DNA of 64,000 nucleotides, from NCBI GenBank assembly GCA_964389325.1, contig CAYMEN010000011.1:52252-116251 (forward strand), written 5' to 3'. Positions 7,560 to 22,377 of this stretch are shown here, piece by piece. The translations under genes and the position numbers were made by a program. The stretch comes from an uncultured bacterium (GTDB taxonomy: Bacteria > Muiribacteriota > Ozemobacteria > Ozemobacterales > Ozemobacteraceae). The notes beneath the pieces were generated by a model. The model ran no database searches. It saw only the letters and a program-made list of their open reading frames with translations, and had not been told where the DNA came from. Numbering within the stretch: the first letter of the stretch is position 1; the number at the start of each line of letters is the position of its first letter.

Positions 7560-7874
7560 GTTCCGATCTCCTCTCGATACCGATTTTGCAGGCCCGGTTC
7601 ATGCCGGGAGGCCCTTCGTATGCAAAATCTTCCTGTTGGCCCGTACACAGGGGCTTTCACCGATAGTATCGACGAAAGGGAAGAGTGTCAACGAATCGGG
7701 TGTGTGAAAAGACGGAAATCTTCAGGCTGGTTCTCGGTTTCGGAGACATTTCGAAATTTTGGAGTGCAAAATTCCCGGAGAGTCGTATAATGCCTGATGA
7801 CCGGGAAGACCCGGTCGTACCCCCGGAGATATAGCATGGGGGTGACTATCAACAGGGAATGGAGGTTGCAGTTC

Positions 7875-9059
7875 ATGATCAAAGTTGCCATTGCCAGTCC
7901 GGTTCGGACGCCCATCGGTTCCTTCGGAGGTGCCCTTGCGCCCCTTTCGTGTGTCGAAATCGGAGCAAAAGCCGTCGAGGCTGTACTCCAGCGCAGCGGC
8001 GTTGCCGCCGACGCGGTCGAAGAGGTCTACCTGGGCAATGTTTTACAAGCGGCCAACGGCCAGAATCCGGCCCGCCAGGCCGCGATGAAGGGCGGCATTC
8101 CCCAGCAGATTCCCGCGACGACGATCAACACCGTTTGCGGATCGGGACTGCACGCGGTCGGGCTCGCGTTCAACGCGGTCCGTGCCGGCCAGGTCGGACT
8201 CGCGCTTGCGGGCGGCATGGAGAGCATGTCGAACGCCCCCTACGCGATGAAGGGCGCCCGCAACGGGATGCGCCTCGGCCACGGCGAAATTCTCGACACC
8301 ATGGTGCTGGATGGCCTGACCTGCCCCTTCAACAATTACCACATGGGCATCACTGCCGAGAACGTCGCGCACGAGTTCAAGGTTTCGCGGCAGGAACAGG
8401 ACGAGTTTTCCCTGCAGAGCCAGCAGCGCGCGGCTGCCGCCCGCCAGACCGGCCGGTTTGCCGATGAAATAGTTCCTGTTATCATAAAAGGCAAGAAAGG
8501 CGACGTCACCTTCAAGGACGACGAATTCATCAGGGCCGACACGTCTCTCGAAAAGCTCTCGGGTCTCAGGCCCGCGTTCAAGAAAGACGGAACCGTCACG
8601 GCCGGCAATGCGTCAGGCATCAACGACGGCGGCGCCGCGATGCTTGTCGCGTCCGAAGAGAAATGCAAGGCCCTCGGGCTGGCCCCGATGGTCTACATTC
8701 GCGGCTACAGCCTGGTTGGCCTGCGGCCCGAAATCATGGGCATGGGCCCCGTCTACGCGGTCCGCAAACTGCTCGAGGCCCAGAAGCTGACGGTCGCCGA
8801 CATCGACCTGTTCGAGCTGAACGAGGCGTTCGCCTCCCAGTCGATTGCGGTGGGCAAAGAGCTGGGCGTCGATTCCCGCAAGGTGAACGTGAACGGCGGC
8901 GCAATTGCGCTTGGCCATCCGATCGGCGCCAGCGGTGCCCGCGTTCTCATCACGCTCATGTACGAGATGAAGCGGAGCAACAAAAAGCTCGGCATTGCCT
9001 CGCTGTGCATCGGCGCGGGGATGGGCATCGCGATGCTCGTCGAGAACCCGAACATCTGA
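7875..9059 (+). CDS. atoB: Acetyl-CoA acetyltransferase (thiolase)
   Basis: 'TINTVCGSG', 'GGMESMS', 'NASGINDG', 'ELNEAFA', 'GHPIGASGAR', 'SLCIGAGMG'; GGAGG RBS. Confidence 0.95.
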   Translation: MIKVAIASPVRTPIGSFGGALAPLSCVEIGAKAVEAVLQRSGVAADAVEEVYLGNVLQAANGQNPARQAAMKGGIPQQIPATTINTVCGSGLHAVGLAFNAVRAGQVGLALAGGMESMSNAPYAMKGARNGMRLGHGEILDTMVLDGLTCPFNNYHMGITAENVAHEFKVSRQEQDEFSLQSQQRAAAARQTGRFADEIVPVIIKGKKGDVTFKDDEFIRADTSLEKLSGLRPAFKKDGTVTAGNASGINDGGAAMLVASEEKCKALGLAPMVYIRGYSLVGLRPEIMGMGPVYAVRKLLEAQKLTVADIDLFELNEAFASQSIAVGKELGVDSRKVNVNGGAIALGHPIGASGARVLITLMYEMKRSNKKLGIASLCIGAGMGIAMLVENPNI

Positions 9060-9081
9060 ACCGGAGGACAGGAGAACGATC

Positions 9082-10332
9082 ATGAAAGAAGCACCTCATC
9101 TGAAACTCGACAAGAGCCTCGCCGAGTTCGAGCTGGCGAAGACCCTGGTTCCTGGCGGTGTCGCGGGCATCCGGCGTCCCTACAACTTCGTCGAGGGCGA
9201 GTATCCGATCTATTTCACCGACGGCCAGGGGTGCCGCGTGCGCGACGTCGACGGGAACGAGTACATCGACTACCTGTGCGCCTACGGCCCGATCATCCTC
9301 GGCTACCGCGAGAAGGAAGTCGATGATGCGGTCATCCGCCAGATCCAGGAGCACGGGTTCTGTTTTTCACTGACACAGCCGATCCAGAACAAACTCGTCG
9401 AGAAACTGCGCGAAGTGATCCCGAGCTGCGAGATGGCCGCGTTCGTGAAGACCGGCTCCGACGCGACGACCCTCGCCACGCGCGTTGCCCGCTGCTATAC
9501 CGGTCGCACGAAGATCCTGCGGTGCGGGTATCACGGCTGGCACGACTGGTGCGTCGAGGTGAAGGGCGGCATTCCCGAGAAGCTGTACGAGGACATCCAC
9601 GAGTTCCACTACAACAACCTCGAGGAGCTCGAGACTTTGCTGAAACAGCACGGCGGCGATACCGCCGGCATCATCGTCACCCCGTTCGGCCACCCGCTCG
9701 CCCTGCCCCTCCAGGAGCCCAAGCCGGGCTTCCTCCAGAGCGTACGCAAACTGGCCGATACATATGGATGCGTATTGATCTTCGACGAGATCCGGTCCGG
9801 CTTCCGCGTCTCGATCGGCGGCGCGCAGAAACACTACGGTGTCACGCCCGACCTTTCCTGCTTCGGGAAGGCGCTCGCGAACGGATACGAGATCAGCGCG
9901 CTCGTCGGCAAGGCCCCGTTCATGAAGAAGCTCGAGAAAGAGGCGTTCGTCTCCTCGACGTTCTTCCCGAACAGCCTGGCCATGGTCGCGGCCCTCAAGA
10001 CGCTCGAGATCATGCAGCGCGACAAGGTGCTCGACGTGATGTGGAAGAAAGGCGAGACGTTCATCGCCGACATGCGCAAGGTCGTCGCCGATGCCGACTG
10101 CGGCGCGGAAGTGTCCGGCATCCCGATGATGCAGTTCATCACGTTCGCCAAGGATGCGACCGGCGCCTACAAGAAGAAGCGGCACGACTTCTACGCCCAG
10201 CTGATCCGGCGCGGCGTGTTCATGCAGCCGTACCACCACGGCTACATCTGCCATCGGCACACCGAAGCCGATCTGAAACACACCATCGACATGATCGCCG
10301 AGTCGCTCGCATACGTGCGGGCGAAGTACTGA
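9082..10332 (+). CDS. kat: Class III PLP aminotransferase, probable 3-aminobutyryl-CoA aminotransferase
   Basis: 'VPGGVAGIRRPYNFVEGEYPI', 'LIFDEIRSGFR', 'PDLSCFGKALANG', 'FMQPYHHGYICHRH' match my recollection of Cloacimonas Kat; sits inside the lysine fermentation operon. Confidence 0.8.
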   Translation: MKEAPHLKLDKSLAEFELAKTLVPGGVAGIRRPYNFVEGEYPIYFTDGQGCRVRDVDGNEYIDYLCAYGPIILGYREKEVDDAVIRQIQEHGFCFSLTQPIQNKLVEKLREVIPSCEMAAFVKTGSDATTLATRVARCYTGRTKILRCGYHGWHDWCVEVKGGIPEKLYEDIHEFHYNNLEELETLLKQHGGDTAGIIVTPFGHPLALPLQEPKPGFLQSVRKLADTYGCVLIFDEIRSGFRVSIGGAQKHYGVTPDLSCFGKALANGYEISALVGKAPFMKKLEKEAFVSSTFFPNSLAMVAALKTLEIMQRDKVLDVMWKKGETFIADMRKVVADADCGAEVSGIPMMQFITFAKDATGAYKKKRHDFYAQLIRRGVFMQPYHHGYICHRHTEADLKHTIDMIAESLAYVRAKY

Positions 10333-10356
10333 GCGCATGGAGGTATATCTGTAGAT

Positions 10357-11187
10357 ATGGATAAGCTGATCATCACCGCCGCCATCTGCGGCGCGGAAGT
10401 GACCAAGGACCACAACCCGGCCGTGCCGTACACGCTGGCCGAGATCGCCCGCGAGGCGAAAGCCGCCCGTGATGCGGGGGCGTCCATCATCCACCTGCAT
10501 GTGCGCGAGGACGACGGGAAGCCGACCCAGTCGGCGAAACGGTTCGAGGCCGCCATCAAGGCGATCCGCGAGGTTTGCCCCGACGTCATCATCCAGCCCT
10601 CGACAGGCGGCGCCGTCGGCATGACGAACGAGGAGCGGATGCAGCCGCTCCAGCTGAAGCCCGAAATGGCCACGCTCGACTGCGGCACCGTGAACTTCGG
10701 CGGGGACGAGATCTTCGTGAACACCGAGAACACGATCATCGAGTTCGCGGCACGCATGAAGGCGAACGGCATCAAACCCGAGATCGAGGTGTTCGACAAG
10801 GGAATGATAGATCTCGCTATACGATTGAACCGCAAGGGCCACATTCCCGGACCGATGCACTTCAACTTCGTTCTTGGAACCTCGTGCGCCATCGCCGCCG
10901 AGCCGCGCGATCTGCTCTACATGGCCCAGAGCATCCCGGCCGGCAGCACCTTCACGGCGAGCGGCATCGGCCGCAACGCCTTCACGACGGCGGCCGTCGC
11001 GATCGTGCTGGGCGGCCACGTGCGCGTGGGCTTCGAGGACAACGTGAACCTCGCGAAGGGCGTTCCCGCGAAATCGAACGGGGAGCTCGTCGCGAAAGTC
11101 GTCCGTATCGCTCATGAACTGGGCCGCGAGGTTGCGACCCCGGCCGAGGCGCGCGCGATTCTCGGCCTGACCGGAGGAAACGCATGA
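10357..11187 (+). CDS. kce: 3-keto-5-aminohexanoate cleavage enzyme
   Basis: 'LIITAAICGAE', 'IIHLHVRE', 'QPSTGGAVGM', 'GHVRVGFEDN'. Confidence 0.95.
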   Translation: MDKLIITAAICGAEVTKDHNPAVPYTLAEIAREAKAARDAGASIIHLHVREDDGKPTQSAKRFEAAIKAIREVCPDVIIQPSTGGAVGMTNEERMQPLQLKPEMATLDCGTVNFGGDEIFVNTENTIIEFAARMKANGIKPEIEVFDKGMIDLAIRLNRKGHIPGPMHFNFVLGTSCAIAAEPRDLLYMAQSIPAGSTFTASGIGRNAFTTAAVAIVLGGHVRVGFEDNVNLAKGVPAKSNGELVAKVVRIAHELGREVATPAEARAILGLTGGNA

Positions 11188-11843
11188 AGAAGTTCGCTCA
11201 GAAAAACGATCTGAAGCACCTGTTCAAGGATGGCCAGACCATCATGGTCGGCGGATTCATGACCTGCGGCACGCCCGAAGGGCTCGTCGACCTGCTGGTC
11301 GAGATGAACGTGCGCGATCTGACGATCGTCTGCAACGACGCCGGCCTCCCCGGAAAGGGCGTCGGCAAGCTGCTGAAGAACAACCAGATCAAAAAATTGA
11401 TCGCGTCGCACATCGGCCTGAATCCCGAAGCGGGCCAGCAGATGAATGACGGTGTCCTGGAAGTCCAGCTCGTGCCGCAGGGAACGCTCGCCGAGCGCAT
11501 CCGGGCTGGTGGCGCCGGCCTGGGCGGCATCCTGACGCATGTCGGCGTCGGCACGATCGTCGAGGAAGAGAAGCAGAAAATCGTCGTGGACGGCCATGAA
11601 TTCCTGCTGGAGCTTCCCCTGAAGGCCGACGTGACCCTGCTGTATGCCAGCCGGGCCGACAAGACCGGAAATGTCTATTACAAGGGCACGACGCGCAACT
11701 TCAATCCCGTCATGGCGATGGCCGCCGAGACCGTCGTCTGCGAGGCCGACGAGGTCGTCGAGATCGGGCAGATGGCGCCCGAAGACGCGATGACCCCCGG
11801 CGTGCTCGTCGATTACGTCGTGGCGAAGGGAGGCTCGAAATGA
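11184..11843 (+). CDS. atoD: Acetoacetate/butyrate CoA-transferase subunit A
   Basis: '[13 protein letters not shown]', 'SHIGLNP', '[15 protein letters not shown]'. Confidence 0.92.
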
Positions 11844-12505
11844 TTCCGAATCCCGATCAGGCGAAAACCATCATCGCGAAACGCATCGCGGCCGAACTGA
11901 AGGACGGCTGGCTGGTGAATCTCGGTATCGGGCTTCCCACGCTGGTTGCGAACTATATTCCCGAAGGCGTGCATGTCACCTTCCAGGCCGAGAACGGCAT
12001 GACGGGCATGGGGCCCGTTCCCGAGGCCGGCAAAGAAAACCTGCAGATCCAGAACGCGGGCGGCCAGAACGTGACGATTCTGCCTGGTGGCTCGTTCTTC
12101 GACAGCCTGACCTCGTTCTCGCTGATCCGCGGCGGCCACGTTGACGCCACGATTCTCGGCACGCTCGAGGTCGACCAGGACGGCAACCTCGCGAACTGGA
12201 TCATCCCCGGCAAAAAAGTGCCGGGAATGGGCGGTGCGATGGATCTCGTGTCCGGCGCGAAGCTGGTGATCGTCGCGACGCTGCATACCGAGAAGGGGCG
12301 GCCGAAGATCCTGAAGAAGTGCAAACTGCCCTTGACCGCGCATCACGAGGTCAATATGATCGTAACCGAGCTCGGCGTCATGGACGTGCGGCCGAGCGGT
12401 CTGGTCCTCCGCGAACACCACCCCGACGTGACGATCGAGGAGATCAAATCGCTGACCGAAGCCGACCTGATCATTTCCGAGCATATCAAGCCCATGGCGC
12501 TCTGA
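11840..12505 (+). CDS. atoA: Acetoacetate/butyrate CoA-transferase subunit B
   Basis: 'VNLGIGLPT', 'FQAENG' (catalytic Glu), 'GMGGAMDLV'. Confidence 0.92.
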
Positions 12506-12537
12506 TGGCGCGCCAGACATCAGGACAAGGAGAGATT

Positions 12538-13578
12538 ATGAAGACAGGCTGCAAATACGGAACCCATCGCGTTATCGAGCCCAAGGGCGTTCTGCCGCAG
12601 GCGGCGGATGTCGTTTCCAATGACATGAATATCTTCGACAATGAGATCCTGATCGATGTCGAGGCGCTGAATATCGATTCGGCCAGTTTCCATCAGCTGA
12701 AGGAAGCCGCGGGCGGCGACGAGGAGAAGCTCAAGGCCAGCATCTGCGAGATCGTGCGCCAGAAGGGCAAGATGAAGAACCCGGTCACCGGTTCGGGCGG
12801 CGTGTTGATCGGCAAGGTCGCCAAGATCGGCCCGAAGCTGGAAAAGAAGATCGCGCTCAAGCCCGGCGACAAGATCGTGACGCTGGTTTCGCTTTCCCAG
12901 ACGCCGCTCCGCATCGACTCGATCGACAAGGTCCACATGAAGATCGACCGCGTCGACATCAAGGGCCAGGCGATCCTGTTCGAGACCGGCCTGTATGCTA
13001 AAATACCGACCGATATACCGGAAGCGGCCGCGATGGCGGCTCTCGATGTCGCCGGCGCCCCGGCCCAGACCGCGAAACTCGTCCGCCCCGGACAGAAGGT
13101 CCTGATCCTCGGCGGAACCGGCAAGTCCGGCATCCTGTGCGCGTATGAAGCCCGCAAGCGTGTCGGCCCGACCGGCCTTGTCGTCGGCATCGGCCAGAGC
13201 GAGAAGAACATCCAGCGGTTGAAGGATCTCGGCTTCTGCCACCACGTCATCAAAGCCAACGCCCAGGATCCGATGGATGTGCTGACCAAGGCGATGGAAG
13301 CCTCGGGTGGCGCCGAGTATGACATCACGATCAATTGCCTGAACGTGCCGAATTCCGAGATGTCCTGTATTCTGCCCGTCCGCGACGGCGGCATCGTCTA
13401 CTTCTTCTCGATGGCGACGAGCTTCACCAAAGCCGCTCTGGGCGCCGAAGGCGTCGGCAAGGACGTCGATATGATCATCGGAAACGGGTACACGAAGGAC
13501 CATGCCGAGATAACGCTCCAGCTATTGCGCGAGAGCCCGGCCCTGATGAAGCTCTTCCGCGAATCCTACACGGCCTGA
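12538..13578 (+). CDS. kdd: L-erythro-3,5-diaminohexanoate dehydrogenase
   Basis: 'GCKYGTHRVIEPKGVLPQ', 'NPVTGSGG', 'LDVAGAPAQT', 'YFFSMATSFTKAAL', 'IGNGYTKDHA'. Confidence 0.95.
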   Translation: MKTGCKYGTHRVIEPKGVLPQAADVVSNDMNIFDNEILIDVEALNIDSASFHQLKEAAGGDEEKLKASICEIVRQKGKMKNPVTGSGGVLIGKVAKIGPKLEKKIALKPGDKIVTLVSLSQTPLRIDSIDKVHMKIDRVDIKGQAILFETGLYAKIPTDIPEAAAMAALDVAGAPAQTAKLVRPGQKVLILGGTGKSGILCAYEARKRVGPTGLVVGIGQSEKNIQRLKDLGFCHHVIKANAQDPMDVLTKAMEASGGAEYDITINCLNVPNSEMSCILPVRDGGIVYFFSMATSFTKAALGAEGVGKDVDMIIGNGYTKDHAEITLQLLRESPALMKLFRESYTA

Positions 13579-13591
13579 CGGGGAACGACGA

Positions 13592-14860
13592 ATGGCAGTC
13601 AATCGCAGAAAAATCCTGTTCAAGGACGTTCCCGACGAGCAGTGGAACGACTGGCGCTGGCAACTTGCGAACCGGGTGACGGACGTCGAGTCGCTGAAAA
13701 AATACATTTCGCTGACCAAATCGGAGGAAGAGGGCATCCAGAAATGCCTCCAGTCACTCCGCATGTCGATCACGCCGTATTACCTGTCGAAAATCGACCC
13801 CGACAACCCGGCGTGTCCGATCCGCAAGCAGGCGATCCCGACGGTCGACGAACTGTACAAGTCCGAGTCCGACCTCGTCGACCCGCTTCATGAAGACGGC
13901 GATTCGCCGGTGCCGGGCCTCACGCACCGGTATCCCGACCGCGCGCTGCTGCTGATCACCGACCAGTGTGCGATGTACTGTCGGCACTGCACGAGGCGCC
14001 GGTTCGCCGGCCAGACTGACCTGCCGCTTCCGATGGCCCAGATCGACGCGGCCATCGAATACATCCGGAACACGCCGCAGATCCGCGACGTGCTCCTGTC
14101 GGGCGGCGACCCGCTGCTGTATTCTGAGGACAAGCTCGAGATCATCATCAAGAAACTGCGCGCGATTCCGCACGTCGAGATCGTCCGGTTGGGCTCGCGC
14201 ACACCGGTCGTCATGCCGCAGCGCATCACCCCCGCCCTGGTCGAGATGCTGAAAAAATATCATCCGATATGGCTCAACACGCATTTCAACCATCCCGACG
14301 AGCTGAGCGAAGAGTCGATCCGGGCCTGCGAAATGCTGGCGAATGCCGGCATTCCGCTCGGCAACCAGTCGGTGCTGCTGCGCGGCATCAACGACTGCGT
14401 GCATGTGATGCGGCGCCTGGTGCATGGCCTCGTCAGGGCCCGGGTGCGGCCGTATTACATCTACCAGTGCGACCTGTCGGTGGGCCTCTCCCACTTCCGG
14501 ACGCCGGTGGCGGTCGGCATCGACATCATCGAAGGGCTGCGGGGCCACACGTCGGGCTTCTGCGTGCCGACCTTCGTCGTCGACGCGCCGGGCGGCGGCG
14601 GCAAGATCCCCGTCATGCCCGACTACGCCATCTCGCACGGGTACAACAAGGTGATCCTGCGCAACTTCGAAGGCGTCATCTCCTGCTACGAGGAGCCGAG
14701 CAACTACAAGCCCGGCTGCCGGTGCGACGTGTGCCGCGGCGAGCGGGAAGTGAAGCTCGAAGGCATCGCGGGCCTGTCTCACCGCAAAATCGCCCTCGAG
14801 CCCGAGGTCACCCAGCGCAAGCTGCGCGGCAAGAAGCGCAAGGCCGGAAACGACCATTGA
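13592..14860 (+). CDS. kamA: Lysine 2,3-aminomutase (radical SAM, PLP)
   Basis: 'CAMYCRHCTR' CxxxCxxC motif, 'LLSGGDPL', 'NQSVLLRGIND', 'DAPGGGGKIP'. Confidence 0.97.
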   Translation: MAVNRRKILFKDVPDEQWNDWRWQLANRVTDVESLKKYISLTKSEEEGIQKCLQSLRMSITPYYLSKIDPDNPACPIRKQAIPTVDELYKSESDLVDPLHEDGDSPVPGLTHRYPDRALLLITDQCAMYCRHCTRRRFAGQTDLPLPMAQIDAAIEYIRNTPQIRDVLLSGGDPLLYSEDKLEIIIKKLRAIPHVEIVRLGSRTPVVMPQRITPALVEMLKKYHPIWLNTHFNHPDELSEESIRACEMLANAGIPLGNQSVLLRGINDCVHVMRRLVHGLVRARVRPYYIYQCDLSVGLSHFRTPVAVGIDIIEGLRGHTSGFCVPTFVVDAPGGGGKIPVMPDYAISHGYNKVILRNFEGVISCYEEPSNYKPGCRCDVCRGEREVKLEGIAGLSHRKIALEPEVTQRKLRGKKRKAGNDH

Positions 14861-14867
14861 CCGTCCG

Positions 14868-14897
14868 GTTCGGGCGCACCCTCGGGTGCGCCCGAAC
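14868..14897. repeat. Perfect 14-bp-arm palindrome downstream of kamA
   Basis: GTTCGGGCGCACCC-TC-GGGTGCGCCCGAAC. Confidence 0.85.
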
Positions 14898-14927
14898 GTC
14901 TCATGAAACACGAATTGCCACGCGTCT

Positions 14928-14956
14928 GTAGGGGCGGGTTTCAAACCCGCCCCTAC
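14928..14956. repeat. GTAG-type REP palindrome, copy 1
   Basis: GTAGGGGCGGGTTT-C-AAACCCGCCCCTAC; second copy at 57683-57710. Confidence 0.85.
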
Positions 14957-15017
14957 GTGAACATGGTGAATATATATATAATACATAATAAAATACGATG
15001 TTCGTGAGGTCCGGAAC

Positions 15018-16109
15018 GTGGTGAGGTGCATCGAACGGCTGTCGCGGGCGGAGCTTTTGGCGAAGCTCCGGACGTTGTCGTCGGCATGTTCGAGTCTCGC
15101 CTTCGTCGGCTCGGGGCAGGGGACGGGCAAGACGACCGCGTTGCAGGCGTTTCTCGACGCCCATCTCGGCGAGCCGGTCGGGGTGACGTCGGTGGGCGTC
15201 GACGGCGCCGCGCTGAACGGGGCTTCCGAGCGGAGCCGGGCGGTGCTGACCGTGCCGCGCGGAGCCATTCTCGCGACCGCCTCGGGCTGCCTCGCCCACG
15301 GGGACATCACCCGCGAAATCCTGGCGGATACGGGGATTCACACGCCCCTCGGCGAAGTGCTGATCGTGAAGGCGCACAGCGGCGGCTGGACCGAGCTCGC
15401 CGGGCCCTCGGTCGTAGCCGATCTGACGCGCGTCTGCCGGCTTCTCGAGTCGCACGGCGCCCGCCGGGTGCTCGTCGACGGCGCACAGGGCCGCCTGAGT
15501 CTTGCCGCGCCGTCGGGCGGCGGTGCCGCCGTGTTCACCGTAAGGCCTGACCCGGCACGGTCCGTCGAGAGCTGCGTCGCGGACGCCGGCCGTGTTCTGG
15601 CACAGTTGTCCCTTGCCGCGGCCCCGGCCGACATCTCCGGCCGGTATCTTGCCAGCGAGAGCGAAGACCGGCCGGCGAAACTTCTCGTCATCGACCGTGA
15701 CGCGAAGAAAACGCGTGGTTTCGCGACAGCCGGGATGGATCGCGATACGGCCGATGCGGTTCGCGACTCGACCGTGGCGATCGGCATCCGCGGAGCGGTG
15801 ACGAACGAGGTCGTCGACCGGCTCCTCGGGCAAAAGCCGTCGGCCCGTGAACGCGGCTGGGCAGGGCTTGTGCTCGTCACCGAGGACGGCACCCGCCTGT
15901 TCCTCGACGACCGTCGCCGTGAACGACTGCGCGCCGCCGGCATCGACGTCCGGGCCGCCCGCCCCCTCACCGTCGCCTGCGTCGCGGTGCACCCCGGCTC
16001 CGTTGCGGCCGGCCCGGATGCCGCCACCGTCTTCATGAAGACCCTGTCTGCGGCTGTTTCCCTGCCGCTCGTGGATGTGATCGGAGGCTGGTATGTTGCC
16101 GGGATTTAG
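15018..16109 (+). CDS. kamB: KamB-like protein (lysine 5,6-aminomutase reactivase small subunit)
   Basis: Position between kamA and the MutS-like gene; N-terminal P-loop-like 'GSGQGTGKTT'; 'GPSV' and 'LVDGA' motifs; start uncertain. Confidence 0.7.
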   Translation: MVRCIERLSRAELLAKLRTLSSACSSLAFVGSGQGTGKTTALQAFLDAHLGEPVGVTSVGVDGAALNGASERSRAVLTVPRGAILATASGCLAHGDITREILADTGIHTPLGEVLIVKAHSGGWTELAGPSVVADLTRVCRLLESHGARRVLVDGAQGRLSLAAPSGGGAAVFTVRPDPARSVESCVADAGRVLAQLSLAAAPADISGRYLASESEDRPAKLLVIDRDAKKTRGFATAGMDRDTADAVRDSTVAIGIRGAVTNEVVDRLLGQKPSARERGWAGLVLVTEDGTRLFLDDRRRERLRAAGIDVRAARPLTVACVAVHPGSVAAGPDAATVFMKTLSAAVSLPLVDVIGGWYVAGI

Positions 16110-17574
16110 GCGGGAACAGGAAGAACGGATCGGGTTTTCCTGGGTGATGGGGCGATGTGAGCCGCTTACGCCGTTCGGGCATGAGCGGAAGAAGGCGGTT
16201 GCGCCGTTTTCCGCGACGGAGCTGGCGGCGCTGAACCGCGAGTTGGATTCGGTGGGACTGCTGTTGGATTGGTGTCGGGCGAATCGTTCCTGGGTTGATG
16301 ATATGAGGCTGGTGCTGGAGCGGTTCAAGGAGGTCCGGGGGACGCTCGGGCGGCTCGGGGAAGAGGGCCGCGTTCTCGACGAGGTCGATTTGTTCGAGCT
16401 GAAGAACTTCGCCATCAATGCCGGTGATTTTCGTTCCCTGGCCGCTGCCTGCGGCCTTTCTGACGTGCGGGTGGCGGTTCCTGACGTATCGGGGGTGGTG
16501 GCGTCCCTGAATCCCGATCCGCCGGTGACGAGGTCGTTTTTTCTAACCGACTCGTATGCGCCGGAATTAGCCTCCGTCCGGGCTGAGAAGCAGCGTGTGG
16601 AGCGGGAACTCCTGAACGAAGCGGCCGGGGGAAGCTCCGGATCCCGGGATGCGTTGACGGAGCGGCGCCGCGAACTGGTGGTCCGGGAACGGGAAGCCGA
16701 GGAGCAGGTGCGCCGCACCCTGACGGGCCGGCTGCGCACTTCCCTGCCGGCACTCGAATCCTGCGTCGCCGCCGTCGGTACGTTCGACTTCCTGCTGGCG
16801 AAAGCTCTGTTGGCGCTCGAACTGAACGCTGTTCGGCCGGATGTCATAGAGAATGCTTGTAAATATATAATGACGGACGCCGTCAATCCGATGGTGGCGG
16901 CCGAGCTGGCCGATCGGGGCAGGGCGTTCGTGCCGATCTCGGTCGAGCTGGGAACGGGGTCGAATGTGATCACTGGCGCCAACATGGGCGGCAAGAGCGT
17001 CGTGCTGGCGACGGTGACGCTTCACGCGGCGCTGGCGATGTGCGGGTTTTTCGTGCCCGCCGCACGCCTCGTGATGCCGCCGTTGGCGTATCTGTTCTAT
17101 CTGTCCGACGACCTGCAGTCGGTGCAACAGGGGCTGAGCACGTTCGGGGCCGAGGTGGCCGAGGTCGAACGCCTGCTCGGGCTGATGCGGCACGGCGTGG
17201 GACTGGCGGCTCTCGACGAGTTCGCGCGCGGCACCAACCCCGAAGAGGGCGAGGCGCTGATGCGTGCACTTCTCGAGTTCGTCTCGCGGTATAATGGCTT
17301 CTGTCTCGCCTCGACGCATTACGGCAACGTGGTGGGGAAGGGAATGAGGCATTTCCAGGTGATCGGTTTGAAACGGGCCGACTTCGAGGAACTGCGGAGC
17401 CGGCTCGATATCCAGAAGGAGCGGAGCTTCGACCAGTTGCAGGAGCACATGGACTACCGGCTCGAACGGGTCGAGTGGGACAGCCCCCCGCCGCGCGATG
17501 CGGTGCGGGTGGCGGAACTGCTCGGCCTCGACGGGGAACTCCTCGAGCTGGCCCGGGCGAAGCTTCGCGGCTGA
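16093..17574 (+). CDS. kamC: KamC-like MutS-domain ATPase (reactivase large subunit)
   Basis: 'ITGANMGGKS' Walker A, 'LSTFGAEV', 'LDEFARGTNPEEG', 'STHY' MutS domain V motifs; no mismatch-binding domain; lies directly before kamD. Confidence 0.8.
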   Translation: MLPGFRREQEERIGFSWVMGRCEPLTPFGHERKKAVAPFSATELAALNRELDSVGLLLDWCRANRSWVDDMRLVLERFKEVRGTLGRLGEEGRVLDEVDLFELKNFAINAGDFRSLAAACGLSDVRVAVPDVSGVVASLNPDPPVTRSFFLTDSYAPELASVRAEKQRVERELLNEAAGGSSGSRDALTERRRELVVREREAEEQVRRTLTGRLRTSLPALESCVAAVGTFDFLLAKALLALELNAVRPDVIENACKYIMTDAVNPMVAAELADRGRAFVPISVELGTGSNVITGANMGGKSVVLATVTLHAALAMCGFFVPAARLVMPPLAYLFYLSDDLQSVQQGLSTFGAEVAEVERLLGLMRHGVGLAALDEFARGTNPEEGEALMRALLEFVSRYNGFCLASTHYGNVVGKGMRHFQVIGLKRADFEELRSRLDIQKERSFDQLQEHMDYRLERVEWDSPPPRDAVRVAELLGLDGELLELARAKLRG

Positions 17575-17598
17575 ACGAGGAAGGGAATGGAGAATCGG

Positions 17599-19161
17599 AT
17601 GTCACACAGCAAATTGAATCTCGATCCGAAGCGGGTTGCCGAGGCGCGCGAACTGGCTCACAAGATTGCCCTCGACACCCAGAAGTTCATCGACCGTCAC
17701 ACGACGGTGACCGTCGAGCGCGCCGTGCTGCGCCTCCTGGGCATCGACGGCGTCGATGCCGAAGAGGTGCCGCTGCCGAACGTCGTCGTCGCGCACCTGC
17801 AAAAGGCGGGCAAGCTGGCGCTGGGCGCCGCGAACGCGATCGGAAACGCGGTCCTCAGAACCGGCCTCGCGCCCCAGCAGATCGCCGAGCGCACCTCGAA
17901 AGGCGAGCTCGATTTGGCCGCCCTTCCGATGGGCGATCTGTTCGAAGTCCGGGCGAAGGTGACGGAACTGGCCCGCGCGACCGTCGAGCGCATCCGGTCG
18001 AACCGGGCGCGGCGCGAGGAGACGCTGAGCGCCGTAGGCGACAAGACGGGGCCGCTCCTGTACGTCATCGTCGCCACGGGAAATATTCACGAAGATATCG
18101 TTCAGGCCCGCGCCGCGGCGAAACAGGGCGCCGACGTCATCGCCGTCATTCGCACGACCGGCCAGAGCCTGCTCGACTACGTTCCGTTCGGGGCCACGAC
18201 CGAAGGCTTCGGCGGCACCTATGCCACCCAGGAGAACTTCCGGCTCATGCGCGCCGCCCTCGACGAGGAGGGCGGAAAACTCGGCCGCTACATCAGGCTC
18301 TGCAACTACTGTTCCGGGTTGTGCATGCCCGAGATCGCCTCGATGGGGGCCCTCGAACGGCTCGACGTCATGCTCAACGACGCCCTGTACGGCATCCTGT
18401 TCCGCGACATCAACATGCAGCGCACGATGGTCGACCAGTATTTCTCCCGCATCATCAATGGGTTCGCCGGCGTCATCATCAACACCGGCGAGGACAACTA
18501 CCTGACCACCGACGACGCGTTCGAGGCCGCGCACACCGTCCTGGCCTCGCAGTTCATCAACGAGCAGTTCGCCGTGCTGGCCGGGCTGCCCGAGGAACAG
18601 ATGGGGCTGGGCCACGCGTTCGAGATGGATCCCGAGCTGAAGAAAGGCTTCCTCTACGAACTGGCGCAGGCACAGATGGCCCGTGAGATCTTCCCGCGCG
18701 CGCCCCTCAAATACATGCCGCCGACCAAGTTCATGACCGGCAACATCTTCCGCGGCCACGTGCAGGACGCCCTGTTCAACATGGTCACCACGATGACGAA
18801 CCAGCGCATCTGCCTGCTGGGCATGCTCACCGAGGCGATCCACACGCCCTTCATGTCGGACCGGTATCTGGCCATAGAAAACGCTCGTTATATATTCAGC
18901 ACGATGGAAGGGCTCGGCGACGAGATCGAGTTCAAGAAAGGCGGCGTCATCGAGCAGCGCGCCCATGCGGTCCTGGACGATGCCGCCCGGCTGCTCGCCG
19001 AGATCGAGCGCGATGGCCTGTTCAAGACGCTCGAAAAAGGCAAATTCGCGGGCGTGAAACGGCCGGTCAACGGCGGCAAGGGCCTCGAAGGGGTCGTGGA
19101 GAAAGATACCGCTTACGTCAATCCGTTCATCGACCTGATGCTGGGAGGGAAGAAATCATGA
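17599..19161 (+). CDS. kamD: D-lysine/beta-lysine 5,6-aminomutase alpha subunit
   Basis: 'HTTVTVERAVLRLLGIDG', 'YVIVATGNI', 'NYCSGLCMPEIA', 'KYMPPTKFMTG'; alternative start at 17587. Confidence 0.96.
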   Translation: MSHSKLNLDPKRVAEARELAHKIALDTQKFIDRHTTVTVERAVLRLLGIDGVDAEEVPLPNVVVAHLQKAGKLALGAANAIGNAVLRTGLAPQQIAERTSKGELDLAALPMGDLFEVRAKVTELARATVERIRSNRARREETLSAVGDKTGPLLYVIVATGNIHEDIVQARAAAKQGADVIAVIRTTGQSLLDYVPFGATTEGFGGTYATQENFRLMRAALDEEGGKLGRYIRLCNYCSGLCMPEIASMGALERLDVMLNDALYGILFRDINMQRTMVDQYFSRIINGFAGVIINTGEDNYLTTDDAFEAAHTVLASQFINEQFAVLAGLPEEQMGLGHAFEMDPELKKGFLYELAQAQMAREIFPRAPLKYMPPTKFMTGNIFRGHVQDALFNMVTTMTNQRICLLGMLTEAIHTPFMSDRYLAIENARYIFSTMEGLGDEIEFKKGGVIEQRAHAVLDDAARLLAEIERDGLFKTLEKGKFAGVKRPVNGGKGLEGVVEKDTAYVNPFIDLMLGGKKS

Positions 19162-19958
19162 GCAGCGGCCTGTATTCGACGTCAAAGAAGGATTTCGACA
19201 AGACCCTCGACCTGACACGCGTCAAACCGTACGGCGACACGATGAACGACGGCAAGACGCAGGTGTCGTTCACCCTGCCCGTCGCCGACGACGACCGCGC
19301 TATCGCTGCCGCCGCCCAGCTCGCCGAGAAGATGGGACTGCGCGAGCCGCAGGTCGTCTACCACAAGAGTCTCGACGCCCAGTTCACATTCTTCGTCGTC
19401 TACGGCACCTGCGAACATACCATCGACTATACGGCGATCAAGGTTCACACGGTCGACAACCAGGTGATGGGCATGCCCGAGACGAACGAGTTCATCCGCG
19501 ACCGGATCGGTCGCAAGGTCGTCATCATCGGGGCCAGCACGGGCACCGATGCTCACACGGTCGGCATCGACGCGATCATGAACATGAAGGGCTACGCCGG
19601 CCATTACGGCCTCGAACGGTATGAGATGATCGAGGCGTACAACCTCGGCAGCCAGGTGACGAACGAGGAGTTCGTGAAGAAGGCGGCCGAGCTGAAGGCC
19701 GACGTGCTGCTCGTTTCCCAGACCGTCACGCAGAAGAACGTCCATATCCAGAACCTGACCGAGCTCGTCGAGCTGCTCGAAGCCGAGGGCCTGCGCGACA
19801 AGGTGGTGCTGGTCTGCGGCGGCCCCCGCATCACCCACGAGCTTGCCAAGGAGCTCGGCTACGACGCCGGTTTCGGCCCCGGAAAATACGCCGACGACGT
19901 CGCTTCATTCGCCGTGAACGATATCGCCCGACGCGGCCTCACGAAACGCCCGGCCTGA
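19158..19958 (+). CDS. kamE: Lysine 5,6-aminomutase beta subunit (B12-binding)
   Basis: 'VKPYGDTMNDGK', 'GTDAHTVGIDAIMNMKG' (DxHxxG motif), 'SQTVTQK', 'CGGPRI'. Confidence 0.96.
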   Translation: MSSGLYSTSKKDFDKTLDLTRVKPYGDTMNDGKTQVSFTLPVADDDRAIAAAAQLAEKMGLREPQVVYHKSLDAQFTFFVVYGTCEHTIDYTAIKVHTVDNQVMGMPETNEFIRDRIGRKVVIIGASTGTDAHTVGIDAIMNMKGYAGHYGLERYEMIEAYNLGSQVTNEEFVKKAAELKADVLLVSQTVTQKNVHIQNLTELVELLEAEGLRDKVVLVCGGPRITHELAKELGYDAGFGPGKYADDVASFAVNDIARRGLTKRPA

Positions 19959-19977: not shown

Positions 19978-21759
19978 ATGGAAGCCGGCATCCGGAACGC
20001 GCAGTCCCGAATGCCGGCTTTCTCGTTTCTGCGAACCCTTCTGGAGCATGTGCGGACGTCGTCGAGAGCGGGAGTATTCATCGAGGTCGTGCTGCCCGTC
20101 CTCCCGCTCTTTTTACTGTATCTCCTCCAGCCCGGGGCTCCCGCCGCCATCGATATGCCGCTTCACCTGCGGGCCGCGAACGATTATGCCCTCGTGCTCG
20201 TCTCGACGAAAGGGATTCCCGATTGGGACCCCTTCGTGTTCGACGGCTTCGGAGCCCTGACATTCCGCTACTCCGGGCAGTTGCCGCTGTTTATTGCATC
20301 TCTCTTCGTGCTGGCCGGGTTCGCGCCGGAACTCGCTCTCAAACTGGCCGTGGTTGGATTTGCGCTTGCTGGGTCCTGGGGAATGCGCGAATTTCTCAGG
20401 TCGGAAGGGCTTTCCTGGCCGCGCCGGATCGTCGGAAGCCTGTGCCTCGTTTCCGGTCCCGGCGTTGCGATGCATCTCTATCACAACTTCTTCTTCCAGC
20501 ATCTGTGCGCGGTTCTGCTCTTCCCCTGCGTGCTGGCGGGCATGAGGACGAATTTCCGCCGGCTGGCCGTCGCGACAGGAGTCATGTGCTGGACGCATCT
20601 CCAGATGGCGTTCGTCTGCCTGTGCCTTGCCGCCGTCGTCGCCGTCATACGATCCGTCATGGCGGGATCGCCGCGGCAATTCGCCACGTTCCTTGCCGCT
20701 TCCGTCATCGGCGGCTGTCTGGCGGCGCCCTTTCTGCTGCCGGCGATGCTCTCGGTGAAGGAGGCGCATTTCGAAGGGAAGAACAAGGTCAGGCCCGGGA
20801 TCGAGTCGCTTTTCATCGACGAGGTGTTCCGGTCGGACAAGGACGCCAACGGCAGAAGCGTTTCGGTCGAGATCGGCCGGGCGCAGGGATTGATGCCGGC
20901 CCTCGACTGCCTCCTGAACCGCGGGGGGCGGATTCACTCGGAATACGGCTGGGTCCTGTTCCGGTTCCTGCGGTCCTGGATCCTCCTGGCGGTGGTGATT
21001 CTGCTGGGGCTCGCGATCGCCGGCGCGGCCGTCGCACGCAGGAGGGGCGCCCTTCCGTGCGGGTTGGCCGGGTTCCTGGCCTGTCTGGCGATGTTCCGGT
21101 GGTCCATGCCTTTCTGGCAGCTGCTTTCGCCGCTCGCGGAGCTTCTCGAATTCTCCTGGCGCCTGCTGATCCCGGCGCAGATCCTTCTCACCCCCGTGAT
21201 GACCGACGGGGGATTCGCATGTGCCCGGATGGCCGGAAGAAGGCTGCCGGGAATCGCCGTGCCGGTCCTGTTCCTGGCCCTGTTCGGCGGACTGCCGGCG
21301 ATTTCCGCCGTTTTCGCGGGGATAAGCAAACCGTTCGGAACATCGGATATCGAGTACTATATGAGCGAGGGAAGAGCGGTGGCTCCCGTGTTCAAGCCGT
21401 TTCACGCCCCGCTGGCTGCCGCCGCCCGTCCCGATGCGATCCCCCTCTTCTCCGCGACGATCGTTCGGGGCGCCGGCAGGGTGTTCCCCGGCGAGCCCGG
21501 CCTCGCCGGAACGACGTTTCGCGCCGATGTCGCCAGCGGCGGGGCGACGATCCGCATTGCGGCCCATTACGATCGCGACTGGCGGCTGACGGCCGACGGC
21601 CGGGAGATCCGCCTGGCACCGGATCGTAGGGACGGAACCCTGACGGCTGTTCTGCCGGCCGGTCTTCACGACATCGTTCTCGAGCGGAAAAGCCCGTCGG
21701 GCCGGTGGATCGGCGCTTTTCTGATGATGGCCGGATTCGCGGCGCTCGCGGCCCTGTGA
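19978..21759 (+). CDS. Polytopic membrane protein, PTPS-related/YfhO-like (GT-C-type glycosyltransferase candidate)
   Basis: About 11-12 hydrophobic segments; early loop 'PDWDPFVFDGFGALTFRYSGQLP'; 'QFSWR'-like 'LEFSWR'; C-terminal soluble domain plus a final TM helix; start uncertain. Confidence 0.6.
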   Translation: MEAGIRNAQSRMPAFSFLRTLLEHVRTSSRAGVFIEVVLPVLPLFLLYLLQPGAPAAIDMPLHLRAANDYALVLVSTKGIPDWDPFVFDGFGALTFRYSGQLPLFIASLFVLAGFAPELALKLAVVGFALAGSWGMREFLRSEGLSWPRRIVGSLCLVSGPGVAMHLYHNFFFQHLCAVLLFPCVLAGMRTNFRRLAVATGVMCWTHLQMAFVCLCLAAVVAVIRSVMAGSPRQFATFLAASVIGGCLAAPFLLPAMLSVKEAHFEGKNKVRPGIESLFIDEVFRSDKDANGRSVSVEIGRAQGLMPALDCLLNRGGRIHSEYGWVLFRFLRSWILLAVVILLGLAIAGAAVARRRGALPCGLAGFLACLAMFRWSMPFWQLLSPLAELLEFSWRLLIPAQILLTPVMTDGGFACARMAGRRLPGIAVPVLFLALFGGLPAISAVFAGISKPFGTSDIEYYMSEGRAVAPVFKPFHAPLAAAARPDAIPLFSATIVRGAGRVFPGEPGLAGTTFRADVASGGATIRIAAHYDRDWRLTADGREIRLAPDRRDGTLTAVLPAGLHDIVLERKSPSGRWIGAFLMMAGFAALAAL

Positions 21760-22237: not shown

Positions 22238-22365
22238 TCGGATGCATCCTTCCTCACGTATATCGAAGGTCGGGACTCTATCCGAAGTATACACGATGAC
22301 GGCCGGGATGGGCGTTCGCGCGTCCGCGCAGGCAGGTTTTCTTACCCCGGAAAGCGGAACTGGTG

Positions 22366-22371
22366 TATAAT
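22366..22371 (+). promoter_or_regulatory. -10 element (TATAAT) 6 nt before the GT2 start codon; leaderless candidate
   Basis: TGGTG-TATAAT-CGCGGC-ATG; no Shine-Dalgarno. Confidence 0.55.
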
Positions 22372-22377
22372 CGCGGC

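What the first reader, a model, noticed from the sequence alone, without database searches (positions are those of the whole stretch)
7875..19958. Self-contained lysine fermentation operon using Kat and a thiolase, with no kal
Seen: thiolase-aminotransferase-kce-CoA transferase AB-kdd-kamA-kamB-kamC-kamD-kamE, all co-oriented; no 3-aminobutyryl-CoA ammonia lyase, crotonase or butyryl-CoA dehydrogenase in the window. Established: the classical route deaminates 3-aminobutyryl-CoA with Kal to crotonyl-CoA; in Cloacimonas acidaminovorans Kat transaminates it to acetoacetyl-CoA instead. Inference: here acetoacetyl-CoA is cleaved by the operon's thiolase, so lysine carbon goes to acetyl-CoA/acetate rather than butyrate. 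Surplus electrons would need another sink (H2 or a syntrophic partner). This would extend the Kat route as an intact operon to another lineage.
Basis: partly seen in the sequence, partly recalled or inferred. Interest (0 to 1): 0.6.

Follow-up and report, generated by a model that had tools for sequence, protein, structure and literature searches.

The report
Kat-type lysine fermentation operon, Riflebacteria
An uncultured digester bacterium (Ozemobacteraceae, Riflebacteria) carries one tidy 11-gene operon for fermenting lysine by the already published "Kat" transaminase variant; it is a sound but ordinary annotation, with one open point: the whole genus lacks the crotonase needed to make butyrate.

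Summary
Window 7875-19958 (+) holds eleven co-oriented, tightly packed genes: thiolase, class-III aminotransferase, kce, CoA-transferase A and B, kdd, kamA, kamB, kamC, kamD, kamE.

- **Kat assignment.** The aminotransferase belongs to the tight Kat family (3-aminobutyryl-CoA aminotransferase, Perret 2011). It is 72% identical to a Cloacimonas orthologue and 30% to the genome's own true HemL, which sits with heme genes on another contig.
- **Missing genes.** Kal and any crotonase were not found in this 97%-complete genome, nor in six other genomes of the genus.
- **Genes elsewhere in the genome.** There is Hbd, a Bcd-EtfAB cluster flanked by ptb and buk, Gdh, two NADH-dependent [FeFe] hydrogenases and Rnf. 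Acetate plus H2 is therefore plausible, but a butyrate branch through an unknown dehydratase is not excluded.
- **Prior knowledge.** Perret 2011 already showed kat inside an intact lysine cluster of a Bacteroidetes contig. A protein in the same 90%-identity cluster is already named Kat in GenBank. 450 matched stretches in the species-level genome set encode relatives, and five of the 80 best loci show the identical 11-gene order.
- **Earlier in this scan.** Kat-type clusters were noted before on other DNA (47 notes, at least 36 genomes).

Verdict: a new member of a known kind, of low to moderate interest.

The parts
7786..7791 (+). perfect TATAAT hexamer in the 315-nt divergent intergenic region between the pullulanase gene (- strand, start 7559) and the thiolase; a possible -10 box of the operon promoter
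   Evidence: read directly in the sequence; the consensus scan did not list it as a full promoter; inference only
7875..9059 (+). thl, acetoacetyl-CoA thiolase (acetyl-CoA C-acetyltransferase), 394 aa
   Evidence: TIGR01930 479 bits > 241, Thiolase_N/C; RBS GGAGG 8 nt before the ATG at 7875; only thiolase found in the genome by tblastn
9082..10332 (+). kat, 3-aminobutyryl-CoA:2-oxoglutarate aminotransferase orthologue, 416 aa
   Evidence: PF00202; HemL model TIGR00713 only 260 bits < 527; 72% identical to a Cloacimonas sp. orthologue, 30% to the genome's own HemL, PLP lysine K263 aligned; inside the Kat clade; same 90% cluster as OQA04629.1, named '3-aminobutyryl-CoA aminotransferase'
10357..11187 (+). 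[quoted passage not shown]
   Evidence: NF052387 430 bits > 382; BKACE PF05853
11184..11843 (+). CoA-transferase subunit A (AtoD/ScoA-like), acetoacetate:acetyl-CoA CoA-transferase
   Evidence: TIGR02429 212 > 128.5; NF007394 291 (cut-off 315)
11840..12505 (+). CoA-transferase subunit B (AtoA/ScoB-like)
   Evidence: TIGR02428 307 > 243.6
12538..13578 (+). kdd, L-erythro-3,5-diaminohexanoate dehydrogenase (start refined)
   Evidence: NF052381 258 > 200, match begins at residue 81 of the long ORF; MKTGCKYGTHR start read
13592..14860 (+). kamA, lysine 2,3-aminomutase (radical SAM/PLP)
   Evidence: TIGR03820 601 > 525; LAM_C, Radical_SAM
15018..16109 (+). kamB, lysine 5,6-aminomutase reactivase subunit (divergent)
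   Evidence: NF052386 179 bits, below the cut-off of 210, full-length match; conserved position in relatives at 27-33% identity
16093..17574 (+). kamC, MutS-like reactivase ATPase
   Evidence: NF052383 463 > 300; MutS_V
17587..19161 (+). [quoted passage not shown]
   Evidence: NF052384 913 > 600; PF09043
19158..19958 (+). kamE, lysine 5,6-aminomutase beta (B12-binding) subunit
   Evidence: NF052385 413 > 280

Best explanation
This is an operon for the Kat variant of anaerobic lysine fermentation in a Candidatus Ozemobacteraceae (Riflebacteria) genome.

**Steps inferred from family membership**
1. KamA makes beta-lysine.
2. KamDE, kept active by KamBC, makes 3,5-diaminohexanoate.
3. Kdd oxidises and deaminates it, giving NAD(P)H and NH3.
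4. Kce plus acetyl-CoA gives acetoacetate and 3-aminobutyryl-CoA.
5. Kat passes the amino group to 2-oxoglutarate and gives acetoacetyl-CoA.
6. The CoA-transferase activates acetoacetate with acetyl-CoA, releasing acetate.
7. The operon thiolase cleaves both acetoacetyl-CoA molecules to acetyl-CoA.

Outside the operon, Gdh (contig C13) regenerates 2-oxoglutarate. Ptb-like phosphotransacylases and acetate kinases give ATP.

The net reaction is lysine + 4 H2O -> 3 acetate + 2 NH3 + 4 [H], with 2 acetyl-CoA available for ATP.

**Fate of the electrons (inferred, about even odds)**
The two NAD(P)H leave mainly as H2 through the NADH-dependent [FeFe] hydrogenases, with Rnf supplying reduced ferredoxin. 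That fits a low-H2 digester setting. The reason for this reading is that neither Kal nor any crotonase is encoded in the genus.

My confidence applies to the operon's identity and the Kat step. The end-product claim is weaker.
For: **Gene set**
- Family hits above curated cut-offs for kce, kdd, kamA, kamC, kamD, kamE and both CoA-transferase subunits.

**Kat assignment**
- 66-74% identical to homologues that sit next to thiolase and/or lysine genes in 79 of 80 loci from about 10 phyla.
- 72% identical to a Cloacimonas sp. orthologue.
- The family is sharply bounded: one 50%-cluster representative at 60% identity and 593 bits, the next full-length hit at 45% or less and 344 bits.
- In the quick tree the window protein lies between the Cloacimonas and Bacteroidota branches, the two lineages whose Kat was assayed (PMC3149608).
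- The true HemL is elsewhere, beside ahbB/ahbD.

**Missing genes**
- Kal, ECH_1, ECH_2 and MaoC were not found in the genome. The one weak MaoC hit is an LpxC-FabZ fusion.
- Kal and ECH_1 were not found in 6 other genomes of the genus.
- tblastn with crotonase and Kal proteins of phylum relatives found nothing.

**Supporting enzymes elsewhere**
- Gdh.
- Two group-A6 NADH-dependent [FeFe] hydrogenases with NuoF-like partners.
- RnfC.
- Two AckA.
Against:
- The exact sequences of the two assayed Kat enzymes were not on hand, so identity to them is by proxy.
- Against the acetate/H2 fate: hbd is conserved in all 7 genomes of the genus. It tracks kce across the phylum sample, with 12 of 13 kce-bearing genomes having it.
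- Bcd-EtfAB with ptb and buk is conserved in 6 of 7 genomes of the genus. Only the dehydratase of a butyrate branch is missing.
- No canonical Pta.
- No lysine transporter or regulator was recognised at the operon.
Confidence: 0.8

Rival explanations
1. The operon and the Kat step are the same, but the net acetoacetyl-CoA is reduced to butyrate, so the products are the classical acetate + butyrate + 2 NH3 and the redox balance closes. The route would be Hbd, an unrecognised 3-hydroxybutyryl-CoA dehydratase not of the crotonase family, Bcd-EtfAB, then Ptb-Buk.
For: - Hbd sits next to ackA and is conserved at 86-100% identity in all 7 genomes of the genus. It co-distributes with kce in the phylum sample.
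- The buk-acd-etfB-etfA(Fer4)-bcd-ptb cluster on C50 is conserved in 6 of 7 genomes of the genus.
- A second ptb-buk pair lies on C22.
- Perret 2011 proposed exactly this branch, with 'unidentified steps', for Cloacimonas.
Against: - No ECH_1, ECH_2 or MaoC hydratase in the genome; no ECH_1 or Kal in any of the other genus genomes searched.
- No candidate dehydratase lies beside hbd or bcd.
- The ACAD/Etf proteins score best against acryloyl-CoA reductase models, below their cut-offs, so their substrate is open.
Confidence: 0.35
2. The aminotransferase is not Kat. It would be a HemL-like aminomutase or a transaminase for another pathway intermediate, and 3-aminobutyryl-CoA would be handled by something else.
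For: The best curated NCBIfam and PDB matches are glutamate-1-semialdehyde aminomutases. NCBIfam holds no Kat model that could confirm membership.
Against: - All those matches are far below their cut-offs (260 against 527 bits).
- A genuine HemL (591 bits) is encoded with heme genes on C45.
- The protein is 30% identical to that HemL against 66-74% to Kat-context homologues.
- Sources already name cluster-mates and relatives as Kat.
Confidence: 0.04
3. kal and the crotonase exist but are missing from the assembly. The genome is a draft of 139 contigs, so the classical route could carry the flux.
For: The genome is a 97.4%-complete draft. Two genomes elsewhere in the phylum do carry kal together with a crotonase.
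Against: - Seven genomes of the genus (72-98% complete) all lack both genes, while all carry kat and kce.
- In this operon kat sits directly before kce. Perret 2011 describes the hemL-like gene (kat) as found at the kal locus of the Bacteroidetes lysine cluster.
Confidence: 0.03

Closest known systems
Kat-variant lysine fermentation: the digester Bacteroidetes contig (DIG1_60031) and 'Candidatus Cloacamonas acidaminovorans' CLOAM0809/0810 (Perret et al. 2011, PMC3149608)
   Same: - A HemL-like class-III aminotransferase replaces Kal.
- As in the Bacteroidetes contig, kat sits inside a clustered lysine operon.
- As in Cloacimonas, kat is directly next to the acetoacetyl-CoA thiolase.
- An AtoDA-type CoA-transferase is present.
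- The crotonase is missing from the genome while Bcd/Etf is present, the same 'enigmatic' gap that paper describes.
   Different: - Here thiolase, kat, kce, CoA-transferase, kdd, kamA and kamBCDE are all in one 12-kb unit. Cloacimonas has them scattered, with only thl-kat paired.
- The host is a Riflebacteria lineage.
- Hbd is present here, whereas it was reported absent in Cloacimonas.
- Identity to Cloacimonadota and Bacteroidota orthologues is 64-72%.
Classical Kal-type lysine fermentation cluster (Fusobacterium nucleatum, Clostridium sticklandii; as summarised in PMC3149608)
   Same: kamA, kamDE with kamBC, kdd, kce, the CoA-transferase and the thiolase: the same enzymes and the same first four steps.
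   Different: No 3-aminobutyryl-CoA ammonia-lyase (Kal) and no crotonase. Deamination is by transamination to acetoacetyl-CoA. One extra NAD(P)H arises through Gdh, so redox balance needs Hbd plus Bcd, or H2.
HemL, glutamate-1-semialdehyde 2,1-aminomutase (TIGR00713; PDB 3k28, 2gsa)
   Same: The same fold and PLP lysine. It is the closest solved structure (2e-63).
   Different: About 30% identity. The score is below the HemL cut-off. The genome has its own HemL beside heme genes.

Membership tests
Kat, 3-aminobutyryl-CoA aminotransferase (Perret 2011) | Class-III (HemL-like) PLP aminotransferase fold with the Schiff-base lysine | tested here: met
   PF00202 170 bits. K263 in FGKALANG aligns with the GK of the genome's own HemL and is invariant in 12 family members.
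Kat, 3-aminobutyryl-CoA aminotransferase (Perret 2011) | Close sequence kinship to the two assayed enzymes (Cloacimonas and digester Bacteroidetes, about 65% identical to each other) | tested here: inconclusive
   By proxy only: 72% to a Cloacimonas sp. orthologue and 64-69% to Bacteroidota orthologues. The window protein nests between those branches (quick tree; Kat clade support 86). The exact CLOAM0809 and DIG1_60031 sequences could not be retrieved.
Kat, 3-aminobutyryl-CoA aminotransferase (Perret 2011) | Not the housekeeping HemL | tested here: met
   TIGR00713 260 < 527 for the operon protein. A separate HemL scores 591 > 527 next to ahbB/ahbD on C45.
Kat, 3-aminobutyryl-CoA aminotransferase (Perret 2011) | Linked to lysine fermentation genes or thiolase, with kal absent from the genome | tested here: met
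   Flanked by thl and kce. Kal not found in the genome or genus.
Kat, 3-aminobutyryl-CoA aminotransferase (Perret 2011) | Transaminates 3-aminobutyryl-CoA with 2-oxoglutarate; acts only on CoA esters | not testable with these tools
   Needs an enzyme assay.
Lysine fermentation core (kamA, kamDE, kdd, kce) | All five core enzymes present as equivalog-level matches | tested here: met
   TIGR03820, NF052384, NF052385, NF052381 and NF052387 all above cut-off. The kamC reactivase is above cut-off; kamB is below (179 < 210) but syntenic.
Classical Kal route | 3-aminobutyryl-CoA ammonia-lyase (NF052388) and a crotonase/Bcd branch | tested here: not met
   Kal: no match. Crotonase: no match. Bcd-EtfAB is present on another contig.

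The most novel reading that the evidence does not exclude
Ozemobacteraceae may do something with lysine-derived acetoacetyl-CoA that has not been shown in any organism. There are two possibilities. One is a butyrate-free fermentation, lysine -> 3 acetate + 2 NH3 + 2 H2, that depends on H2 removal. The other is closure of the Thl-Hbd-?-Bcd/Etf-Ptb-Buk route with a 3-hydroxybutyryl-CoA dehydratase of a family not yet recognised. Either would also answer the gap that Perret et al. left open for Cloacimonas.
Probability: 0.3. Interest if true: 0.5.

Novelty: new member of a known kind. Interest (0 to 1): 0.25.

Why it matters
It gives a clean, complete example of the Kat route in a third candidate phylum, one that is common in anaerobic digesters. 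It also shows that the Kat family is far more widespread than the two phyla reported in 2011: 450 matched stretches in the species-level genome set encode relatives, some of them in cultured Carboxylicivirga and Plebeiibacterium. That matters for reading amino-acid turnover and H2/butyrate budgets in digesters.

The only unresolved biology is the genus-wide absence of a crotonase beside conserved Hbd and Bcd-Etf.

Tried and rejected
- **RNA elements.** Rfam found no riboswitch or other RNA in the window.
- **Transcription signals.** The promoter/terminator scan was uninformative for operon limits.
- **ORF 7278-7790 (170 aa) upstream of thl.** Rejected as a gene: it has no family hit and its first 280 nt are antisense to the pullulanase gene 5352-7559.
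- **ORF 20113-21669 on the - strand.** Rejected: R/G/E-rich antisense of a real membrane-protein gene.
- **Weak MaoC hit.** It is an LpxC-FabZ fusion, not a hydratase for this pathway.
- **Apparent N-terminal extension of the C22 Ptb-like ORF.** It overlaps buk and is spurious.
- **Dehydratase candidate by synteny.** I looked for a conserved neighbour of thl-kat in Cloacimonadota. The neighbour found in 12 of 12 loci is CTP synthase, which is housekeeping.
- **Sequence of the assayed Cloacimonas Kat.** I tried to pull it through two protein searches and two cluster look-ups without success.
- **Single HGD-D family protein on C25.** Not followed up.
- **Careful tree.** It did not finish in time; only the quick tree is reported.
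Full report
**What is there**

On the + strand between 7875 and 19958 lie eleven co-oriented genes separated by -17 to 32 nt, apart from a 157-nt gap before kamB. NCBIfam and Pfam identify them as follows:

| Gene | Coordinates | Evidence |
|---|---|---|
| acetoacetyl-CoA thiolase | 7875-9059 | TIGR01930 479 > 241 |
| class-III aminotransferase | 9082-10332 | PF00202 |
| kce | 10357-11187 | NF052387 430 > 382 |
| CoA-transferase A | 11184-11843 | TIGR02429 212 > 128 |
| CoA-transferase B | 11840-12505 | TIGR02428 307 > 244 |
| kdd | 12538-13578 | NF052381 258 > 200 |
| kamA | 13592-14860 | TIGR03820 601 > 525 |
| kamB | 15018-16109 | NF052386 179, below cut-off 210, full-length |
| kamC | 16093-17574 | NF052383 463 > 300 |
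| kamD | 17587-19161 | NF052384 913 > 600 |
| kamE | 19158-19958 | NF052385 413 > 280 |

I move the kdd start to 12538. Upstream, a pullulanase gene runs divergently. Downstream, 19 nt after kamE, begins a 593-aa polytopic membrane protein of no known family. It leads into a glycosyltransferase / radical-SAM / asparagine-synthase-like cluster. I do not count it as part of the pathway.

**Organism**

The closest public relatives of the aminotransferase (91-98% identical) come from 'Candidatus Ozemobacteraceae' and Riflebacteria MAGs from anaerobic digesters and similar sites. The assembly holding the window is 5.2 Mb in 139 contigs, 97.4% complete and 0.95% contaminated.

**Is the aminotransferase Kat?**

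- Its best curated matches are glutamate-1-semialdehyde aminomutases, but far below their cut-offs (TIGR00713 260 against 527). The nearest solved structures are HemL at about 2e-63.
- The genome has a genuine HemL on contig C45 (TIGR00713 591 > 527), next to the siroheme decarboxylase AhbB and an AhbD-like radical SAM gene. The two proteins share 30% identity, with the PLP lysine aligned.
- By contrast, the window protein is 72% identical over its full length to the orthologue of a Cloacimonas sp. genome and 64-74% identical to the 80 best genome loci.
- In those 80 loci the homologue sits next to a thiolase in 45 and directly before kce in 41. All but one locus holds a thiolase or a lysine-specific gene.
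- In a library clustered at 50% identity there is one full-length representative at 60% identity and 593 bits, which JGI names 3-aminobutanoyl-CoA transaminase. Scores then fall to 344 bits and 45% or less. The family is tight and well separated.
- A quick maximum-likelihood tree puts the window protein inside that clade, between the Cloacimonadota and Bacteroidota branches. Perret et al. assayed Kat from exactly those two lineages, with enzymes about 65% identical to each other (PMC3149608).
- A member of the same 90%-identity cluster, OQA04629.1 from bacterium ADurb.Bin374, is already named '3-aminobutyryl-CoA aminotransferase' in GenBank.
- I could not retrieve the exact assayed sequences, so the identity to them is by proxy.

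**kal, crotonase and bcd in the whole genome**

- Kal (NF052388) has no match in the genome. The fused Kal-Kce model matches only through its Kce half.
- ECH_1 and ECH_2 crotonase models have no match.
- The one weak MaoC hit is an LpxC-FabZ fusion.
- tblastn with real crotonase and Kal proteins taken from other Riflebacteria finds nothing better than E = 0.04.
- The same holds for all six other genomes of the genus (72-98% complete), all of which carry kat (91-98% identical) and kce. The absence is a trait of the genus, not an assembly gap.
- Elsewhere in the phylum sample two genomes carry Kal together with a crotonase. Both pathway versions therefore occur in Riflebacteria.

Other contigs carry:

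- **Contig C50:** buk, a second acyl-CoA dehydrogenase, etfB, etfA with an N-terminal ferredoxin domain, a Bcd-like acyl-CoA dehydrogenase, and a ptb-like phosphotransacylase. The cluster is conserved in 6 of 7 genomes of the genus.
- **Contig C22:** a second ptb-buk pair.
- **Contig C5:** hbd, 8 nt upstream of an acetate kinase. It is conserved in all 7 genomes of the genus. In the 21-genome phylum sample it occurs in 12 of the 13 kce-bearing genomes and in only one genome without kce.

The operon thiolase is the only thiolase detectable in the genome. Everything for acetoacetyl-CoA to butyrate is therefore present except the dehydratase. Perret et al. called the same kind of gap 'enigmatic' for Cloacimonas.

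**Electron sinks and ancillary enzymes**

- A glutamate dehydrogenase is on C13.
- Five [FeFe]-hydrogenase-domain genes exist. Two are NADH-dependent group-A6 enzymes above their cut-offs, each next to a NuoF-like subunit.
- RnfC is present.
- There are two acetate kinases.
- There is no canonical Pta; only the two Ptb-like enzymes were found.

**How it most likely works**

Steps 1-7 follow the published Kat pathway:

1. Lysine to beta-lysine (KamA).
2. Beta-lysine to 3,5-diaminohexanoate (KamDE, kept active by KamBC).
3. 3,5-diaminohexanoate to 3-keto-5-aminohexanoate (Kdd).
4. Cleavage with acetyl-CoA to acetoacetate plus 3-aminobutyryl-CoA (Kce).
5. Transamination to acetoacetyl-CoA plus glutamate (Kat), with Gdh recycling 2-oxoglutarate.
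6. Acetoacetate plus acetyl-CoA to acetoacetyl-CoA plus acetate (CoA-transferase).
7. Thiolysis to acetyl-CoA (thiolase).

By stoichiometry each lysine consumes 2 acetyl-CoA and gives 4. The net yield is 2 acetyl-CoA, 1 acetate, 2 NH3 and 2 NAD(P)H, that is lysine + 4 H2O -> 3 acetate + 2 NH3 + 2 H2 if the electrons go to protons. If Hbd, a dehydratase and Bcd act on the net acetoacetyl-CoA, the two NADH are consumed and the products are the classical acetate plus butyrate.

The gene content favours H2 slightly, because no dehydratase was found in the seven genomes of the genus and hydrogenases and Rnf are present. However, the conservation of hbd and bcd-etf, and the co-distribution of hbd with kce, keep the butyrate branch alive. 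I put it at about 45% acetate/H2, 35% hidden butyrate branch, and the rest other or mixed.

**Comparison with what is known, and novelty**

The Kat variant, the HemL-like gene at the kal locus of an intact lysine cluster (Bacteroidetes contig), the thl-kat pairing (Cloacimonas), and the idea that acetoacetyl-CoA goes to acetate through thiolase are all in Perret et al. 2011.

What is added here:

- A further candidate phylum.
- A fully consolidated 11-gene unit.
- The same 11-gene order in five of the 80 best loci: an Ozemobacteraceae MAG, an unclassified bacterium, a Zixibacteria MAG, a Leptolinea (Chloroflexota) MAG and a Chloroflexia MAG.
- The Ozemobacteraceae Kat groups with those lineages rather than with Rifleibacterium of its own phylum (quick tree). 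This hints at transfer of the whole operon.

In 2011 the authors found almost no Kat homologues in public data. Now 450 matched stretches in the species-level genome set encode relatives, including cultured Carboxylicivirga and Plebeiibacterium. My literature searches found no paper on lysine fermentation in Riflebacteria. This scan's own notes list 47 Kat-type lysine cluster findings in at least 36 other genomes. They are consistent with my reading, but I did not rely on them.

**Verdict**

This is a new member of a known kind. The only open question is the genus-wide missing crotonase beside conserved Hbd and Bcd-Etf.

Noticed in passing
window 19978-21759 (+): A 593-aa polytopic membrane protein with no Pfam or NCBIfam family starts 19 nt after kamE. 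It is followed by a GT2-type glycosyltransferase (22363-23289), a B12-binding radical SAM protein (23264-24787) and an asparagine-synthase-like gene (24794-26704). It looks like the start of an envelope-glycosylation cluster rather than a lysine transporter.
   Followed up: partly
L006 (G000:C50:3000-22000), genes at 6961-13401 (-): A buk / acyl-CoA dehydrogenase 2 / etfB / etfA-with-ferredoxin-domain / bcd-like / ptb-like cluster. It is conserved in 6 of 7 genomes of a genus that has no crotonase at all, so its substrate is unknown. Its best, sub-threshold models are acryloyl-CoA reductase AcrABC.
   Followed up: partly
L007:8711-10880 (G000:C5): hbd lies 8 nt upstream of an acetate kinase. 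Across 21 Riflebacteria genomes hbd occurs in 12 of 13 kce-bearing genomes and in only one genome without kce, although the genus lacks the next enzyme (crotonase).
   Followed up: partly
L102:6081-8558 (-) (G000:C7): D-ornithine 4,5-aminomutase OraE (NF040743, 1329 bits > 800). The organism probably ferments ornithine as well as lysine.
   Followed up: no
L013, L015, L017, L018 versus L047, L058 and others: The identical 11-gene order thl-kat-kce-atoDA-kdd-kamABCDE occurs in Zixibacteria, Chloroflexota and an unclassified bacterium. The Ozemobacteraceae Kat groups with these lineages rather than with Rifleibacterium of its own phylum, whose operon lacks the thiolase. This hints at horizontal transfer of the whole operon (quick tree only).
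   Followed up: partly
G013, G017, G012 (phylum relatives; L099, L100): Two Riflebacteria genomes carry Kal. In G017, Kal lies near hbd and a crotonase; G013 also has crotonases. Both have no Kat. G012 has kce and a crotonase but neither Kat nor Kal was found (2249 bases of it are withheld).
   Followed up: no
G000 genome-wide: No canonical phosphotransacetylase: TIGR00651 scores at best 76 bits against a cut-off of 311. Only two Ptb-like phosphotransacylases were found, alongside two butyrate kinases and two acetate kinases.
   Followed up: partly
L086 and 11 other Cloacimonadota loci: In Cloacimonadota the thl-kat pair is followed in 12 of 12 loci by pyrG (CTP synthase). This is conserved synteny with a housekeeping gene, not a pathway gene.
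   Followed up: yes
window 7278-7790 (+): A 170-aa ORF just upstream of the thiolase has no family hit. Its first 280 nt are antisense to the pullulanase gene. It is probably not a gene, and the region 7560-7874 is the divergent promoter region.
   Followed up: partly
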